Source: the human T2T-CHM13v2.0 reference genome, Homo sapiens. Taken from it: 64,000 nt of DNA. Positions 1 to 13,645 of this stretch are shown piece after piece. The stretch lies in the NCBI RefSeq assembly GCF_009914755.1, contig NC_060932.1. The stretch is one strand, 5' to 3'. Position 1 is the stretch's first letter. The number at the start of each line of letters is the position of its first letter. A program made the translations under genes and the position numbers. The notes beneath the pieces are model-generated. The model was given only the letters and a program-made list of their open reading frames with translations, was not told the DNA's origin and did no database searches.

Positions 1-530
1 GAAAAGCGGCCCGAAATGAGTTGAGTTATTCATCCCCACCGCGGAGTCAGGGACAAGGAGCAGTTGAGTGGCCGAGGAGTGAGAGAGAATCGAATCCACT
101 CGGGTCCTCCAAGCTGTTGGTTACCCACTTGGGCTTTCACAGCAAAGCTGCCAAATCCCAGAATTGAGGCCTCGGTGAAAAGCGCGCTGAGACTTGGGTA
201 GGAGGCCCGGTGGGACCCGCGAGCTTTCTCTCCCAGCCCGATGCAGCAGTTCATTAAGCGGCTGTGTTTCCTCCTAACTGGCGAAGGACTCAGGTGGGCG
301 GAGCAGAGCTCAGCTTGGGAGGAGGCGGACGCGAGTAGCTCGGCAGGGGGACTCGCTTGGCTTTCGTGCCATCCGTGGACACAGTCGCGCGGGTAGGTGA
401 CCGGGTTGGATTTCAAAGTCCAGCAGGAAATCCTGCCCTCTGGGTTGCACTTCCTGGATGAGCCTCTGACGTCTCAAGCAGCATTGTTTTAATGCTTTGA
501 TGAAGCTCAGCACGCTGCCGAAATCTCGGC
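1..530. promoter_or_regulatory. Edge of CpG-rich ASAH1 promoter / 5' region
   Basis: High GC and many CpGs (gcgcgc, cgcgcg, gggcgg GC-box at ~296-301) contrast with the CpG-depleted remainder; the region contains the ASAH1 first exon. Confidence 0.75.
129..254 (-). CDS. ASAH1: Acid ceramidase, alternative upstream first coding exon (42 codons); the gene continues left, outside the window
   Basis: ATG at 254-252 opens MNCCIGLGEKARGSHRASYPSLSALFTEASILGFGSFAVKAQ, which I recognise as the N-terminus of the alternative ASAH1 isoform. It is followed directly by a phase-0 donor CAA|GTGGGT at 128. Confidence 0.9.
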
Positions 531-809
531 AGTATTTTTTCTTTTCTTTTTGCATGTGAGAGAAAGGACAACAAATTGCAGTTTTATCCATTTGTATTAT
601 TTCTTTAGAAAACTCAACACTCTTTTTGTTGGAGGTGGGGAAATGAGAAGGTGATGTTTTGTTTTGCTTTTTTTCCTATTTTTTTTTTTTAAAGGAGGAG
701 AAGATGACAGTGTTCTCCCTAAGGATGAAGTTTGACTTTTGAAACATATCACATGCTTAAAGCACATTTGAGCTCCTGCATGAACAGTAAGCTAGCAGAT
801 GGTAGAAAT

Positions 810-1340
810 ATTCTTTATTAATTCAAAAAATATTTACTGCGGACCTACAATGTGCCAAGCATGTCTCCTGACACTGGGGATAAGCAGTGAACAACAACAA
901 AAAGACAAACTTCTTCCACCCTGAGGCGTATGTTCTCGGTGAGAAATGGGCAATAAACATAATACCTAAGAAAATTATACGGGATGTTAGTGACAAATGC
1001 AGTGGAGGAAAAGGGAGGCCAGGGGCATCAAGTGTGGAGATCAGAAGTGGTAGAGTTACAATTTTAAATAAGAGGGACAGATAGACATGATTAAGGAGGT
1101 GAAGTTTGAGCAGACAGTTGAGGGAGACCAGGAAGCTAGTTTTGTGTGTGCCCAAGTAAGAGTATTCTAGGCAGAGACAGCAGCTGTTAAAAGGCTTTAA
1201 ATGGAGAATGTGCCTGGCATGTTCAATTACAGCAGACGTGTGTGGGTCTGGCACAGAAAGAACAAGGGGAAAAGAAGAAAGAAGTATTAATAGACAAAGT
1301 ATTTAGTTAAGGAGAGCAGGGCAAATTCTGTAAGGCATTC
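810..1340 (-). mobile_element. L2 3' fragment
   Basis: Reverse complement of the L2 3' terminus (attcaaaaaatatttactg...ctacaatgtgccaagc). Confidence 0.7.
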
Positions 1341-2335
1341 AGAGCCATTTCACTCCGGAAAAAAAATGTGTAATATTGAATATACGTGTTAAATGTTGAA
1401 TCTATGGAATTACCTTGGAGCTTAAAATGAGTGTGCGAAGAAGAGGATTCCCATCTTTTAGTTGTTATTACTAAATCAAATAGCTACTTGATTGGAAGAT
1501 CATTCATCTTCAGTACTCTTGAGAGCGATTTAAACATGTCACCAAGCATATTTTTTTCCCTACTGGAGGATGTTAATTGGTGATTAGGTAGTCTAGCAAA
1601 ATCAGATTCTTTATGGAAAAAATTTGTCAATTGACATACTATTCTTAGGCACCACTTTCGCAGAACTATGCGTCTAACTTTCAAAGGTCTATTATATATT
1701 ATTAATACTCTTTTCAGATAAAATATAAATCTAGTTCCCTAAAATTAAACCATTTCATGCATGTCTTTTTTTTCTTACACATATATCTTTATTTTGCCTA
1801 CACCATTCTTTAATACTAGAAATGTACAGAAAGTCAAGGCAAGGTGTGTGTAGGAGACTTTGCAGTGGTTTTTGGCATACTGATCTGTTCATAGAAAATG
1901 GTATTTAAATGTGCAAATGCATGATTATGTCCACGGAAAGGGTGGTTCATACTGCACAAAAGCATCAAGTTTAAGACTTGGATAACCTGTTTCGTGTGCA
2001 AGAGTCGGGATATGTAATCAGATTGTTTATGGAATAGCTGAAGTTCTTGGCAAGCTGTGGACTTCCTCATCTCCTACCTAACATTCCTAGGTTCCTGAGG
2101 TGGAGCCTTGATTTAAAAGGGTTGCAACTTAGCCACCCCACCCTAAATGAAACCTATCATGTATAACATCACATTACCTGGAACAGGTTTGACTTGATTT
2201 AGTAAAACCGAATATACAAAAACGTGTACTAAAAGGTCAAGAGATAGAGAAATAATGTTTCAGTTTGAGAAATAAACATTTTTTTAACTTTAAATATTGA
2301 CTTTTTTATGAATAAGGAAGCTTTTTATTTTACAG

Positions 2336-2554
2336 GTCTTTGTGGGAAGAAACAAATCACAAAAGCAATTAAGAGAGCTCAAACAATGGGTAAGAAAGAG
2401 CACCTCAACAACTGTATTGAGCTAGCTGAAATTTTGCTCATTATGCTTTGTCAAGAACTTTAATTATCTCTTTACAGGGTTTATGCCAGTTACATACAAG
2501 GATCCTGCATATTTCAGGGACCCTAAAGTTTATAACATCAGATATCCGGAATAA
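2336..2554 (+). pseudogene. MRPS18CP3: MRPS18C last two exons plus 88-nt intron, carried antisense inside the ABRAXAS1 retrocopy 3'UTR (probably MRPS18CP3, name from recall)
   Basis: ag|2336-2389 encodes LCGKKQITKAIKRAQTM; intron gtaag...tttacag 2390-2477; exon 2478-2554 encodes [24 protein letters not shown]. Confidence 0.85.
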
Positions 2555-3211
2555 ATTCCATCACATTACCACCAGTAAACTTATTTTATAGTAAGTGGTT
2601 GTATGACGCCAATACTGACTCAAACCAACCTTTGGATAGAAAAGTGTTTCAGGAGTGAGGTAAAGAATGACACTTCCCCTTCATACCAATCAGTGTTCAT
2701 TAAGCAGATCGCTTATTTAAAATGTTAACACTCATCACATTTTACATATGTTGAATGAAAGTGGTTCTGGGTGATAGTCATTTATATCTGGTCCACAAAT
2801 AGCTCATACAATGTAGTACACCATTCAACTGAATGGAGTTAAAACTGCTCAGAATGGTTTTCTAACTAGCAAATGTAAGTATGCCTGGTTAAGAGATCTT
2901 CCCTTTGTAGGAATGTTACACTGGGATGCATAGTGATGCTGTCACAGCAGGACAAAACATTCCTAGACAACTCTATCCTCAAACCAGTAGTGTCTTTTAC
3001 ATAAAAAGATGATTTACACCTAATAGACAGTGAATGTGATAGACATGTATGTATATATGTATCAGTTCTGAGTTCCACCAGCCTATCCCAAACACACTGG
3101 ATTACCAGGCTTGTACTGTACTCAAAATTAAGGATTTGCTAAATTTCGTGCAAAGGACTCTAAACTAGGGGAGAGATTATTGTTTGTGTTGCGTTATAGT
3201 TGTGTAATAAT

Positions 3212-3317
3212 TAAGGCTGCCAGATTTAGCAAGTACAAATGTAGGACAAATTTAAATTTTAGATCATGTTTTGCAAAGGTACTGCGTGAGATCCAGCATT
3301 TTATCTGGCAACACTAG
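3212..3317. mobile_element. MER53-like palindromic hAT MITE inside the retrocopied 3'UTR
   Basis: Inverted termini ggctgccagatttagc ... ttatctggcaacacta. Confidence 0.6.
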
Positions 3318-3431
3318 CTGTAATGTACTTCTAAAAAATTATCACCTAAGGATAATTTTAATGACTCAGATAAATTTCATATAAATTTCTTTCCACATTG
3401 TGAAAATAAGGCTATTCTAGCTTTTCTAATA

Positions 3432-3564
3432 CTTTTTTTTTTTTTTTTAATAGAGATGGGTCTCACTGTGTTGCCCAGGCTGGTCTCTAACTCCTGGCCT
3501 CAATCATTCCTGCCTTGTCTTCCCTAAGTGCTGGGATTACAGCTGTGAGCCACTGTGCCTGGCC
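3432..3564 (-). mobile_element. FLAM / Alu left monomer
   Basis: T-tail plus a monomeric Alu body. Confidence 0.85.
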
Positions 3565-3967
3565 TCACTTTTCCAATTCTAAAGAATGTGTGTAAGCCTT
3601 TCCCTCAACAACTTATTGAAAGGCGAAAAAAGGTTTGGAAATAAAAGGATCTGATGTTTGAAAAAGTACTTTGTAAAATAAATGCACTAAGACTTATCTG
3701 TGGATTACTGCAAAGAGGTGAATATAGTAAAAACAAATGAACTTACCTGTATTACTGCAAGTGGCTCAACCTAGTAAAAACAATGGAAATGTTTGACTTT
3801 ACCCATCAGCCAAATTAAAAAAATCTCCTTTTAAGGTTAAAAGGATCAAAATGTAGGTGACCGTGAATATTCACCAAAACCTTCATCTTTTCAATCTCTT
3901 CATCTGTTTCTGGGCTGCTCATTTTGGATGCTTTGTTATTGGTTACTACTATCAGTATCTGTTTTAG

Positions 3968-4386
<419 letters not shown>

Positions 4387-4694
4387 GTCATCTCTTGAAC
4401 TGCCATCTGTCAGCTAAGTCTAAGGTTTTATGCTTAACCATTTGTGGTGTACTAGCTGGACTAGCTTCAGGAATGTCAGTGTTTTCTACCATTAAGGTCA
4501 GATTGTCTACTACATCGAGATGGTGGTGGTTGTTAGAGCTACCTTTAGAAACATGTCTGTTTTTTTAAAGACATAACACATGCATGAAGAATTCAGAATC
4601 TGGAAAAAAGGTCCATAATGTTTGACAAAGAAAAATGTTCTCCTGAGGGTCTTTTTTGGATGCTCTTCTCTCGTTCTGCTGGAATCTGGGCTCA

Positions 4695-4799
<105 letters not shown>

Positions 4800-4802
4800 T
4801 TA

Positions 4803-5063
<261 letters not shown>

Positions 5064-5066
5064 TCA

Positions 5067-5222
<156 letters not shown>

Positions 5223-5300
5223 TTATTTACTTCACCTGAAGAATTATAAAAACTAAAAAACTGATAGCATGGAATATATTTCTGAATGTCAATTGTATAA

Positions 5301-5945
<645 letters not shown>

Positions 5946-7111
5946 ACATGAAAATAGACATTTCTCCTTTGTTGAGAAGGATGTACAACAAATCTATGAA
6001 GTTTAAGTTTTAGTACCTTCACTTGCTCATGCCCCTTCCCAACCTTTTACTAAATTTTATGCTTGTAATTTTGTATTCTTTTCCTTAAGGAGGACCACTT
6101 AAATTGCATAAGATTCAGGTGTCACCAAACCTGGATCTAGCATCAGATGTTGTTGGAAGAAAATGTCCACCTTTCTCTGCCGTCTCCTCCATTCATGTCT
6201 CCCTAGGGAAGGAGAGATGTATGATGTATCTAATCAGTAAATAGTTGAAAAGGTCACAGAACGTGCGTGGCCTGGCCTCTCTTCTGGCGCTTTCATTCAG
6301 ATCTGCCTCCCCACAGTAGTAGATATGCCTGCCCACACTGGTAATTCTACTGCAGCAAGCCTTGAATGACAACAGTGGACGTGAAAGTAGTTGCTGCCTT
6401 TGACCACATCTTCCCAAAGTGGCACGTCACCAACAGACTTTAAAATCATGACGTTATAACGTAATGGCTGTGAAGATTTGGAAGAAAGCACTCTAAAATG
6501 AGAGCTCTGAGAGATGTAGAGAGAAGGCAGTCAAGGAATAGCGCCTATAAGCACCTCCTGCACATCCGGTCCCTGCGCCTCCATCCTCACCCTGCCCTCA
6601 GCTCACTCCCCTCCTGTTAGAAATTGGCTGTGCCCCTGAAAAGTCATTTGCATTTGCCTAAAGACTGAGTACACAAGCTCATTCCAAAGTAGAAGGTGTT
6701 GAAGTTCCATTTTGGCCTCAGGTCAAAATTGTTTTCTCTATTTCAGCTTAGTGAGCAAGAAAGCAGAATCTAATATGTGTATATTTCTAACGCCTGTGTA
6801 TATTTCTCAACTGTTTCCCAGCTCAGAAAGGTGAGGAGTATGACAGTCACCCTGAAATGACAACAGAAGCCAACAATAACAATTATAGTAATAATGTGTG
6901 TATAGAAAGTACTAAATGACCATTAAATGAAGAGCAGATTACTAGGTGCTATGGAAGATACACATGCAGTGAAATACAAATTCCAGATCTCAGGGAGTTT
7001 GCAACCGAAAAAGAATATAACACTAATATATATACAAGGGGACTTCAAAACGTTCACCTGCACCCTCCACCTCCCAGGTTCAAAGATGGAGTTAAAGGAT
7101 AAAAAGTATAA

Positions 7112-7312
<201 letters not shown>

Positions 7313-7652
7313 TAAAAAAAGAGGGTCCTGGGAATTTAACCATGTCAATGAGTCTTTATTAACTGAAGAAAAATGGGTGCCCTTTACAGATTTTTTAAGA
7401 TTAGGAAACAAAAAGAAGTCAGAAAGATTTCCTGTGGAAGCTCTTGCAAAATTGCCCTTGTTTGATGAGAGGAATGGGCAGGAGCATTGTCATGGTGAAG
7501 AAGGACTCTCTGGTGAATCTCCTGGGCATTTTTCTGATAAGGCTTTGGCTTTCTCAAAATACTCTAATAATAAGGAGATGTTGTCATTTTTTGGCCCTCC
7601 AGAAAATCAACAAGCGAAATGCCTTGAGCATCAAAAAGAAATGTTGCCATGA

Positions 7653-8306
<654 letters not shown>

Positions 8307-9195
8307 GGTCTGCTTTTGCTTTGACTGGACCATTTGCAATTCTTGGAAGCCATTGCTTTAATCGTGCCTTGTGTTCAGGATCCTACTGGTAAAGCCATCC
8401 TGTTACAGTTCTTCAAATAAATGCTTCAGCATCCTGATCTCACTTGTTTAAAATGTTCATTTAAAAGGTCTACTCTTGACTGCAGCTGATCTGGATGTAA
8501 TGGTTTTGGCATTCATTGAGGGGAAGGTTTGCTCAACTATAATTTTTCACTTGTAATTGTGTAAGCTGAACAAGTTGAGATGTCTATGCTGTTGGCTGTT
8601 ATTTGTGCTGTTGTTAGTCCTCTTCAATTAGGGCATGAAGATGATGAATTTTTTTCTCACAACTTGATGTAATGATCTGGCACTGTGGGTTTCATCTTCA
8701 ACGTTGTCTCATCCTTTTTAAATTGACTTGTTTGTTTGTAAACTGCTGATTTCTTTGGGGCATTGTCCCCATAAACTTTTTGTAAAGCATTAGTGATTTC
8801 ATTGTTCTTCTACCCAAGCTTTACCATAAACTTGATATTCTTGCTTCAATTTTACAGAATTTGTGTTGCTTATATAGGGGCTTTTTTCTGACTGACGATT
8901 TATCCTTCCTATTACCTCCAGCTAGATCCTTTGAGACATACTACAGTAAGATAGTATGAGTTTATTTTGGTGCAAACAAATTTTGAAATCATACGTAGTT
9001 ATTTTATAGCATGCATTTTCCATGGACTTTTTGAAGTCCCCTTATATATATAGACTTATAAAGGCAGCTTTAACTGAAGCATATTTTACACATGTTCTAT
9101 TTGGTTGAAGATATGAAATTACCATTTTTGTAGATAAAATGTATTTGAATATTAACACTTTCATATAGCCAACCTAATTGTTACCAACACCCGAA

Positions 9196-9420
9196 ACATT
9201 CACAATTACTTGACTTGGAAACTTCAACATTCCAGAACATTCACAATTACTTAACTTGGAAACTTCAAATTCCAGAACATTCACAGTTACTTGACTTGGA
9301 AACTCCAACATTCCAGAACATTCAGAATTACTTGGCTTGGAAACTTCAACATTCCAGAGCATTCACAATTACTTGACTTAGAAATTTCAACATTCCAGAA
9401 CATTCACAGTTACTTGACTT
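9196..9420 (+). repeat. 41-bp minisatellite, ~5.5 copies
   Basis: Unit acattcacaattacttgacttggaaacttcaacattccaga starts at 9196, 9237, 9277, 9318, 9359 and 9400. Confidence 0.95.
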
Positions 9421-9886
9421 GCCATCACACTGTAGTTATCTGTAGACCTCTGGGGTCCCCTGCTTCTCCTCACTCTTTGAAGGTTTTGACACCTGACTCA
9501 CTGTCACTCTTTTAAACCTGACTCTTGGCAACATTCTTGGTGATTTCAACATCCACAAAGACAATCTTTCCAATATTCTGGTTTCCTGACTTCTGAAAAT
9601 GTTCTTGGATGCCATTTTACCTCAAATACCCAGTTCCATGGTCATATCTTAGACATTGGAATATTTACATCATTTTGCTTCGGGGGTACCATTCTCTTGA
9701 TTCTTCCGTTACTCACTGGCCACATTTTGAATAGCATCTGTTGGTTTCTCCTCATCAACTGATCTCTATATGTAGGAGTACCCTAGGGCCTGGTCATCAG
9801 ACGTTGTTTCTTATTTATCTATGCTTACCACTTAATGTGACCTCATTCACTCTCATGACTTTAGTTCCATCTGAATATTGATGACA

Positions 9887-10911
<1,025 letters not shown>

Positions 10912-11441
10912 AGTGACTCCCAAATTTATGTCACTAGCTCAGACCTGTCCCCTGAATTTAGATTCTTATATGTAGTTGCTTCTCAGCCTCATCTACTTTG
11001 GATACCTAATAGGTATCTTAATATGTCATGTCTAAAAAGGAACTTATGTTTTCTCCGTCCCAATATACACTGTCCCTTTCCCAAATCTTCCCCATCTCAG
11101 TAAATGGCAATCCCATCTTTCTAGTTTGCTTAGGCCAAAGAATCTTACAGTCAATTTGATTTTTCTCTTTCTTACCACAAACTCAATGCACCAGCAAATC
11201 CTATTAGCTTTACGTTCAAAATATACGATACCCCGAATCTGACCACTTCTCACCACTTTCCACTTCTGCTTTCTTCCAGGTTACTCTCATCTGGATTATT
11301 GTAGTCACCTTGTCACTGGTATCTCTGCTTTCTCCTAACCCCCATCTAATCTCCAAAAAATCAGAACATGTCACTCCTGGCCCCCAAATCCCCCCAGTGA
11401 CTCCGCCCTCCCCACCCCGCTCAGAATTAAAGTCAATGATC

Positions 11442-11888
<447 letters not shown>

Positions 11889-12699
11889 TGAGGGACATAG
11901 CACTTACTGCTACCTTTGTTTGGAATGTTCTTTCCCAGATACCCATGTGGCACACCCAAATGCTTGAGTGGCCCCTTATTAGTGAGGCCTTCCTATAGCA
12001 TTATATATAAGATGGATATAAGGTAGGACTCAGAACATACTCCCTATCCTCCTTACTCTACTTCACCTGACTCCAAACACTGTCACCACCTGACGTAGTA
12101 CATATTTTATTTTTTATTTGTTTAGCATCTGTCTGCCTCTAACTAGAATGCAAGCTCCATGAGGACAGAGATTTTTGTTTTGTTTACCGCCATATTGTCA
12201 GCAGCTAGAGCAATGTCTGGCATGTAGTAGCACTCAATGAATATTAATTGAATAAATGAGCTACCTAAAAAATAACTGCATTGATATCATAACCCAAGTA
12301 GTGTCTGAAATAATGTAATGAATTACCAGAATGCAAATGAATTATTTTCCAGATGTCTTTAAGTTGGGTGTTGGAAAGTCAATATGCATTTTTCCTACAA
12401 ATATAAAGTAAGTGCTGTTATTATCCCCATCTTATGGATAAGACATCTGATATTTAGCTTATGCAACTATGCCTGTTTTCTGATTTTGAGGCATGTACCT
12501 CACCACTTATACTAAATTTCCAGGTCAGATCATAAAACCTTACGTAAGCCATAAAATTCAGATATAAAGTAGTCTAAAAAAAGGAAGGACCAGAATGGAA
12601 GATACCTATCTTACACACAAACAGCTGTATCTAGAGTATAGGCTTCTTAGCTTTCTAGATGTTTCACCCAGTTATAGCTGTTCTTTGATAGTGATACAG

Positions 12700-13645
12700 T
12701 GATAGAGGCAGGAGGCAGAGAAATTCTAGGCAGATGGGAAGATCCCTGGCAAAGCACCACCCTAAAGCTGAAAAGCTTGAAACCACTGCCTAAAGTGAGA
12801 ACTTATATTCCCGTTTTCCTGCTTGAATGTTGTCTTTTCCTAAACTACCCATAGCCTGCCCCACCCTATCTTGTGCCTATAAAGACCCCAGACTCAGCCA
12901 GCAGAGGGGAGAAACAGCTGGACATCAGAGAGAAGCAGCCGGACTTCAGAGGGACAGCTTGATGACATAACTTTGGAGAAGAATGCAGCCAGAGATGGGT
13001 GGACTCCAGGGAAAGATTACCTGCCGCCCCACCCTCTTTTCAGCTCCCCTTCCTGCTGAGAGCCACTTTCATCGGCAATAAAATTCACTGCATTTGCTAT
13101 CCTTCGATTTGTTTGTATGACCTTATTTCTCCTGGACGCCGGTCAAGAGCTCAGGAACCATCAGTGCGATACAAAAGGCTGTCACACTGGCCCTTTGCCC
13201 TCACCGGAGGAGGGCAGCCACCTCATGCAAAAGAGCAGAAGGCTCACTGAGCTTTTAACACTCAAGCTGTCCACGGGTGGAAGAGCTGAAAGAGCACTGT
13301 AACACACCCTCTGGGACTTCAGGAGTTGCAGGCACCCTGCAGGGATGTTGCTGTGGGGTCTGTATGGAGTTTGCTCCTGCTGGTGCCCCAGAGTGCTTGC
13401 TCTAGCTCCTGTACCTACTCACCTGTGTGTTCCCTCCTGTGGGGTGGAACACAGTGGGTCCAAGTGAGTGGAGATTGATCCCGCTGGTGCCAAAGTAGCT
13501 GGCTGGTTCCAGTGCTTGTGCACTCCAGTTCCTGCCTTGTTTGCTGGTGCGCTGCCTCCCATGAGGAGTTGAGAATGGCAGGCAGAGTAAATGAGGCGCC
13601 CCTGTCGTGAGTCCTGCAAAGGGGTCAGGGAAATATTCTCCTCTG
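12700..13645 (+). mobile_element. Solo ERV1 LTR (LTR1/LTR27/LTR28-like)
   Basis: Starts tgatagaggcaggaggcagagaaattctaggcag; TATA-like cctataaaga at ~12877; AATAAA at ~13077. Confidence 0.75.

What the first reader, a model, noticed from the sequence alone, without database searches (positions are those of the whole stretch)
9196..9420. Minisatellite built from heat-shock elements ~9 kb upstream of ASAH1
Each 41-bp unit junction contains aTTCc-aGAAc-aTTCa, a perfect three-pentamer HSE (nTTCnnGAAnnTTCn). There are four perfect copies (~9229, 9269, 9310, 9392) and one GAG variant (~9351), plus an extra gGAAa-cTTCa pair per unit. The 41-bp period is about four helical turns, so the sites lie roughly on one face of the helix. 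Inference: a multimeric HSF1/HSF2 platform and possible VNTR-tuned stress enhancer for ASAH1.
Basis: partly seen in the sequence, partly recalled or inferred. Interest (0 to 1): 0.7.

Follow-up and report, generated by a model that had tools for sequence, protein, structure and literature searches.

The report
Minisatellite that binds heat-shock factor
A short 41-letter DNA repeat inside the ASAH1 antisense gene carries five heat-shock elements and lies under published HSF1 binding peaks in stressed human cells, but it shows no enhancer RNA and is likely a docking site with little effect on ASAH1 rather than a length-variable stress switch.

Summary
A 41-bp minisatellite (9195-9421, 5.6 copies) carries four perfect three-pentamer HSEs and one GAG variant, the only perfect HSEs in the window. 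It lies in an ASAH1-AS1 intron, between a mariner relic and a LINE relic. The enhancer reading is weaker. No enhancer RNA is called there in five PRO-seq lists, and the site is missing from two smaller HSF1 lists. ASAH1 and ASAH1-AS1 are induced in only 1 of those 4 conditions (K562 heat; 1.35- and 3.2-fold in a second K562 study). VNTR tuning is unsupported: hg19 and CHM13 spans differ by 2 bp, and the units are about 4% diverged. The sites share one helical face only at nucleosomal pitch. Best reading: an old tandem amplification of one chance HSE gave a real HSF1 docking site with little output. A K562-type enhancer role for the HSE-less ASAH1/AS1 promoter stays open (about 25%). Several similar HSE minisatellites exist elsewhere in CHM13.

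The parts
9195..9421 (+). 41-bp minisatellite, 5.6 copies (unit starts 9195, 9236, 9276, 9317, 9358, 9399; unit 2 is 40 bp)
   Evidence: single locus in CHM13
9229..9243 (.). perfect three-pentamer HSE 1 (aTTCc-aGAAc-aTTCa)
9269..9283 (.). perfect HSE 2
9310..9324 (.). perfect HSE 3
9351..9365 (.). HSE 4, middle pentamer GAG instead of GAA
9392..9406 (.). perfect HSE 5
9217..9389 (.). two-pentamer nGAAn-nTTCn pairs at 9217, 9258, 9339 and 9380 (broken at 9298), out of register with the triples
8940..9677 (.). span of published HSF1 ChIP-seq peaks mapped from hg19: MCF7 heat 9035-9651, MCF7 arsenite 9058-9493, K562 heat 8940-9677, K562 arsenite 8974-9624
   Evidence: PMC10654513 supplementary file 7; mapping from the NR_125429 span
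7027..9052 (-). left neighbour: mariner-type DNA transposon relic with 30-nt terminal inverted repeats, interrupted by Alu-like inserts (the name HSMAR2 is recalled, from no call)
   Evidence: inverted arms 7027-7056 and 9023-9052, 90%; Pfam HTH_48 at E 0.11, below cut-off; broken transposase-like frame
9425..9700 (+). right neighbour: LINE endonuclease relic reading LGDFNIH (the name L2 is recalled)
   Evidence: frame; dispersed homologues at 73-93%; no Pfam hit for the 30-aa piece
321..13106 (+). host lncRNA ASAH1-AS1 (LOC101929066); its 5' end overlaps the ASAH1 5' end head to head
   Evidence: hub gene table; hg19 span

Best explanation
This 41-bp minisatellite holds five heat-shock elements and is bound by HSF1 in stressed human cells; it likely arose by old tandem amplification of one chance element and likely acts as a closed-chromatin docking site with little or no control over ASAH1. 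Shown: the array, the five HSEs, ChIP-seq peaks centred on them, and no called enhancer RNA. Inferred: after heat or arsenite, HSF1 trimers read each three-pentamer HSE directly, one trimer per unit and up to five per allele. The trimers sit about 26 bp apart, too far for the contacts seen on continuous pentamer runs, so five separate sites would mainly raise the chance of occupancy. Inferred: as at other untranscribed HSF1 targets, binding would open or acetylate local chromatin a little without starting transcription, and the copy number is largely fixed.
For: Peaks in 4 of 4 lists (18,138; 16,373; 31,813; 12,891 rows), centres at window 9343, 9276, 9309 and 9299 against an array centre of 9308. 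The HSEs fit the definition and the preferred pyrimidine-purine spacer in PMC8379338 (passages). No dTRE at the site in 4 of 4 lists of PMC10654513 or among 30,727 K562 dTREs of PMC5557961. ASAH1/AS1 are absent from 3 of 4 up-lists although HSF1 is bound in all 4. Both papers describe HSE-rich, bound, untranscribed sites as a large ordinary class (40% of targets). No sign of selection on HSE bases: 1 change in 50 core positions against 9 in 178 others, Fisher p 0.70. There are 76,189 perfect HSEs genome-wide, about 1 per 1,000 stretches of 41 bp, so some minisatellites carry one by chance.
Against: ASAH1 and AS1 are both heat-induced in K562 in two studies; in PMC5557961 only 778 genes go up against 6,122 down. 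The shared promoter has no three-pentamer HSE within one mismatch in 2 kb, yet shows an HSF1 peak in K562 heat only, as a loop from the array could give. dTRE calling inside a transcribed intron and a 90%-identical repeat may miss weak signals. The selection test has little power. Only two cancer lines were examined.
Confidence: 0.62

Rival explanations
1. The array is a cell-type-limited heat-shock enhancer. HSF1 bound at the five HSEs contacts the HSE-less head-to-head ASAH1/ASAH1-AS1 promoter 8.8 kb away and releases paused polymerase, in cells such as K562.
For: K562 heat: AS1 gene body 7.6 to 24.0 RPK (3.16-fold) and ASAH1 137 to 185 (1.35-fold), both called up; both are also on the K562 heat list of PMC10654513. 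A promoter HSF1 peak without an HSE appears in exactly that condition. In the MCF7 heat list the array peak was the only chr8 peak found over the window's hg19 span, except 17,953,000-17,959,999, which the output did not reach. Mouse muscle raises ASAH1 protein after heat in obese but not normal mice (PMC11749596, passages; no promoter or ChIP data).
Against: No eRNA in five lists. No induction under K562 arsenite or in either MCF7 condition despite binding. The site is not among the 1,295 HSF1 sites of the K562 study that saw the induction. Motif-free HSF1 peaks at active promoters are common. The ASAH1 effect is small.
Confidence: 0.25
2. HSF1 on the array acts locally on its host transcript, starting weak intronic sense transcription or easing passage through the intron, so the AS1 gene-body rise is local. 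Alternatively the rise is heat read-through from PCM1 and has nothing to do with the array.
For: AS1 rises more than ASAH1 (3.16 against 1.35), and its promoter-proximal rise (1.7-fold) matches that of unregulated NAT1 (1.7-fold). PCM1 lies on the same strand and ends 55 kb before the window (hub table); heat read-through is recalled knowledge.
Against: No initiation site is called at the array; AS1 is not up in 3 of 4 conditions.
Confidence: 0.08
3. The array is a length-variable VNTR whose unit number sets HSF1 dose and so ASAH1 stress output between people.
For: One HSE per unit makes dose follow copy number by design. The unit length is in the minisatellite range.
Against: NR_125429 spans 12,784 bp in hg19 and 12,786 in CHM13, so there is no 41-bp step between these two (hub table). 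Every full unit but the first has private changes, 10 of 228 positions, unlike actively turning-over arrays (recalled rule). No ASAH1 or matching coordinate in the two uncut eVNTR lists of PMC8275641 (2,510 and 6,342 rows) or in 4 supplement files of PMC11701250. Whether the locus was genotyped in either study is unknown.
Confidence: 0.05

Closest known systems
Untranscribed HSF1 target regions (PMC5557961) and remote HSF1 peaks (PMC10654513)
   Same: HSE-containing, HSF1-bound under stress, no called initiation, loose link to nearby gene activation
   Different: five HSEs in a tandem array rather than one; not in the 1,295-site list of PMC5557961; chromatin state not seen
HSF1-bound transcribed enhancers (446 dTREs in K562, PMC5557961)
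   Same: distal HSF1 binding near heat-induced genes
   Different: no divergent eRNA called here in five lists
Helitron-acquired HSE clusters of Caenorhabditis (PMC6927752)
   Same: repeat-multiplied HSEs bound by HSF-1 near genes
   Different: not carried by a mobile family: the unit occurs at one locus; 5 sites rather than up to more than 100
Human Satellite 3 as an HSF1/TEAD platform (PMC11526998)
   Same: tandem repeat binding HSF1; 8 of 15 similar HSE pairs lie in chr9 CATTC-type satellite
   Different: 227 bp in euchromatin, 41-bp unit, perfect inverted HSEs
VNTR enhancers such as the INS 5' VNTR (as cited in PMC3762855)
   Same: minisatellite near a gene with repeated factor sites
   Different: no length variation or expression link found here

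Membership tests
canonical HSE | at least three alternating inverted nGAAn pentamers (PMC8379338) | tested here: met
   4 perfect and 1 one-mismatch
canonical HSE | pyrimidine-purine step between TTC and GAA (preferred) | tested here: met
   CA in all five
extended HSE for neighbouring trimers | four or more good pentamers in unbroken 5-bp register | tested here: not met
   the in-phase fourth pentamer lacks the G (tCAAc); the extra pair is 1-2 bp off register
HSF1-bound site | ChIP-seq peak under stress | tested here: met
   4 of 4 lists in PMC10654513; absent from 1,295 K562 sites and from 3,716 oestrogen-treated MCF7 peaks
HSF2-bound site | HSF2 ChIP-seq peak | not tested
   PMC3767495 not held; no HSF2 list was seen
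transcribed HSF1 enhancer (dTRE) | divergent unstable transcription | tested here: not met
transcribed HSF1 enhancer (dTRE) | target gene needs the element | not testable with these tools
   no perturbation data found
untranscribed HSF1 target region | HSE present, HSF1 bound, no initiation | tested here: met
   (binding and initiation in the same study, PMC10654513)
untranscribed HSF1 target region | closed chromatin before stress, H4 acetylation after | not testable with these tools
   no tracks available; the hub lists no RefSeq functional element here
VNTR | tandem unit of minisatellite size | tested here: met
VNTR | copy number varies between haplotypes | tested here: inconclusive
   same span within 2 bp in hg19 and CHM13, two haplotypes only; catalogue held only up to chr5
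transposon-borne HSE family | dispersed copies of the HSE-bearing unit | tested here: not met
   1 locus by DNA search; 24-mer with up to 3 mismatches: 4 hits here, 4 elsewhere at 3 mismatches, control 2

The most novel reading that the evidence does not exclude
The human genome holds a small, undescribed class of euchromatic heat-shock minisatellites (this one on chr8; others on chr2 with 15 HSEs, chr16 with 6 and chr19 with 3) that recruit genes into the heat-shock response by tandem amplification alone. This one is the missing HSE for the ASAH1/ASAH1-AS1 promoter and links HSF1 to ceramide breakdown in some cell types.
Probability: 0.2. Interest if true: 0.62.

Novelty: new member of a known kind. 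Interest (0 to 1): 0.33.

Why it matters
If inert, it is a tidy example of how tandem duplication makes real transcription-factor binding without function, and a natural test of why most HSF1 binding does not activate genes: five perfect sites, one locus, easy to delete. If it does drive the ASAH1/AS1 promoter, it would supply a direct route from HSF1 to acid ceramidase, an enzyme tied to lysosomal disease, cancer and metabolism (recalled), through a young repeat. It would also point to a handful of similar arrays, some more likely to vary in length.

Tried and rejected
Unit derived from the neighbouring LINE relic: rejected. The unit matches the LGDFN stretch at 19 of 24 columns, but 79 of 500 shuffled units and 21 of 118 window tiles score as well, and 7 homologous loci show no match upstream. 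Unit as part of a dispersed family: rejected. Structured RNA: 4 Rfam matches in 8600-10100, all far below gathering score; the one over the array is SCARNA7 at E 0.2. Selection on HSE bases: no signal, low power. Coding role: the plus-strand frames carry stops within or near the array; minus-strand frames over the array were not read. NAT1 as target: unregulated in K562 heat (1.11-fold). Prior description: none seen in the listings of searches ASAH1+HSF1 (30 of 31 listed), HSF1+tandem repeat+heat shock element+ChIP-seq (3), VNTR+ASAH1 (7 of 8), ASAH1-AS1 (5 of 6), HSF1/VNTR/minisatellite/heat shock element (6) and acid ceramidase/heat shock/enhancer (15 of 86). PMC12864986 does not mention ASAH1 in its main text. 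The genome-wide VNTR table of PMC8275641 was cut before chr8. A direct genome-wide count of three-HSE clusters was not obtained; the pair searches cover same-strand pairs with gaps of 3-30 bases only.

Full report
Observation. The array is real: 9195-9421, period 41, 5.6 copies, 90% matches. Each unit junction reads aTTCc-aGAAc-aTTCa. It is perfect at 9229, 9269, 9310 and 9392 and has GAG at 9351. These are all 4 perfect three-pentamer HSEs in the window; shuffles give 1.0 on average, with 1 of 100 reaching 4. That test overstates the surprise, because one HSE was copied by the repeat. A shuffled unit holds a perfect HSE in 95 of 200,000 trials, and the genome rate is about 1 per 1,000 stretches of 41 bp (76,189 sites). 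With more than 55,000 catalogued tandem repeats in the part of one table that I could see, a few HSE-bearing minisatellites are expected without selection.

Anatomy. PMC8379338 (passages) defines an HSE as three or more alternating nGAAn pentamers, one trimer per three, often with a pyrimidine-purine step after TTC. All five sites fit, with CA at that step. The in-phase fourth pentamer lacks its G, and the extra GAA-TTC pair is 1-2 bp off register and broken in unit 3. So each unit offers one trimer site, not a continuous run (inferred). The units differ from their majority at 10 of 228 positions, nearly all private; at a recalled neutral rate of 1-2 per billion per year that is roughly 20-45 million years (inferred). 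Core HSE bases changed at 1 of 50 and others at 9 of 178 (p 0.70).

Surroundings. The array lies in an ASAH1-AS1 intron, 8.8 kb from the ASAH1 5' end (hub table). On the left is a mariner-type relic with 30-nt inverted ends at 7027-7056 and 9023-9052 (HTH_48 at E 0.11). On the right is a LINE endonuclease relic with dispersed homologues. The names HSMAR2 and L2 are recalled. The unit itself is single-locus, and its likeness to the LINE motif is not above chance.

Mapping to published data. NR_125429 spans hg19 17,942,376-17,955,160 (PMC5557961 supplement) and window 321-13106. Offsets at the two ends agree within 2 bp, so the array is hg19 chr8:17,951,250-17,951,476. The same comparison shows no 41-bp step between hg19 and CHM13, barring a compensating indel.

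HSF1 binding. In supplementary file 7 of PMC10654513 (searched by coordinate) a peak covers the array in 4 of 4 lists: MCF7 heat 17951090-17951706, MCF7 arsenite 17951113-17951548, K562 heat 17950995-17951732 and K562 arsenite 17951029-17951679. Their centres lie within 35 bp of the array centre, in lists of 12,891 to 31,813 rows. It is the widest of the rows shown in three lists (of 5, 11 and 6) and third of 8 in the fourth; those rows were picked by my search terms, and width also reflects motif spread. Against: it is absent from the 1,295 K562 heat sites of PMC5557961 (coordinate search; 30 of 40 chr8 rows viewed) and from 3,716 oestrogen-treated MCF7 peaks of PMC8709578. So it is a reproducible but probably not top-rank site. 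That binding depends on stress is inferred, as no unstressed list from the same study was seen. HSF2 was not tested.

Output. No dTRE is listed at the site in 4 of 4 lists of PMC10654513 or among 30,727 in PMC5557961. ASAH1 and LOC101929066 (ASAH1-AS1) appear in 1 of 4 up-lists, K562 heat. In PMC5557961, K562 heat gives gene-body changes of 3.16 for AS1 and 1.35 for ASAH1, both called up, and 1.11 for NAT1, unregulated; 778 genes rose and 6,122 fell. K562 heat also has an HSF1 peak on the ASAH1 promoter side (17941323-17942021), where 2 kb hold no HSE within one mismatch. That fits a loop from the array, but motif-free peaks at active promoters are common (sections 9 and 11 of PMC10654513). 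Binding in four conditions with induction in one fits the class of untranscribed HSF1 targets, 40% of sites in PMC5557961 (section 15).

Variation. Besides the two-assembly match, ASAH1 and the estimated hg38 coordinates were not found in the uncut eVNTR lists of PMC8275641 or in 4 supplement files of PMC11701250. The full catalogue was cut before chr8, three files of PMC8275641 were too large to read, and the hg38 offset is recalled. These unseen files bear on the VNTR claim, which stays unproven rather than excluded.

How rare. Same-strand pairs of perfect HSEs 26-30 bases apart give 15 matches in CHM13 (control 7): 8 in chr9 CATTC-type satellite, 2 here and 5 elsewhere. Gaps of 3-25 give 68 (control 41). 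These include a 30-bp array on chr2 with 15 HSEs, a 31-bp array on chr16 with 6 and a 20-bp array on chr19 with 3, plus three continuous pentamer runs (5 of the loci were fetched). The window's array is one of a handful, not unique.

Mechanism and odds. Most likely (0.62): an old duplication multiplied a chance HSE; stress-activated HSF1 trimers dock on up to five separate sites; little follows for nearby genes. Next (0.25): a cell-type-limited enhancer for the HSE-less ASAH1/AS1 promoter. Less likely: local or read-through effects on AS1 (0.08) and copy-number tuning (0.05). It works like Helitron HSE clusters (PMC6927752, passages) and HSat3 (PMC11526998, passages) in multiplying HSF1 sites by repetition, but is a member of neither. 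It is a member of HSF1-bound HSE sites and fails the dTRE test.

Papers seen. Passages, sections and supplements as cited: PMC10654513, PMC5557961. Passages and supplement searches: PMC8709578. Supplement searches only: PMC8275641, PMC11701250. Passages only: PMC11749596, PMC8379338, PMC6927752, PMC11526998, PMC3762855, PMC12864986. PMC3767495 was not held. No description of this array appeared in the listings; subscription papers are largely outside that library.

Verdict. The motif reading and HSF1 binding are right; enhancer function is open and VNTR tuning unlikely. New member of a known kind, interest 0.33.

Noticed in passing
L035:184-868 (G000:C2, about 37,524,780-37,525,470): AT-rich 30-bp minisatellite, 16-24 copies, with 15 perfect HSEs; 11 successive HSE pairs are letter-identical, so it is a better candidate for a length-variable HSF1 platform than the window's array. 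Binding not checked.
   Followed up: partly
L036:528-713 (G000:C16, about 95,241,330-95,241,510): 31-bp minisatellite, 6 copies, 85% matches, with a perfect HSE in each of the 6 units.
   Followed up: partly
L015:1501-1553 (G000:C19:7,116,066-7,116,118): 20-bp repeat with 3 perfect HSEs and further near matches.
   Followed up: partly
L037:419-466, L038:378-420, L039:380-417: Continuous pentamer runs giving 8, 7 and 6 overlapping perfect HSEs (about 10, 9 and 8 pentamers) on C19, C23 and C19.
   Followed up: partly
window 7027-9052: Mariner relic with both 30-nt terminal inverted repeats intact and TA-rich ends, interrupted by several Alu-like inserts.
   Followed up: partly
L040:469-1167 (just before the window start): K562 heat-only HSF1 peak on the GC-rich (69%) ASAH1 promoter side, with no HSE within one mismatch.
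   Followed up: partly
window 9216-9396: The unit also holds CATTCC (TEAD-like, 4 copies) and TGGAAA (NFAT-like, 4 copies); the motifs are recalled and binding was not checked.
   Followed up: no
window 9099-9178: 20-nt inverted repeat, 80% complementary, 40 nt apart, just left of the array; unexplained, possibly chance.
   Followed up: no
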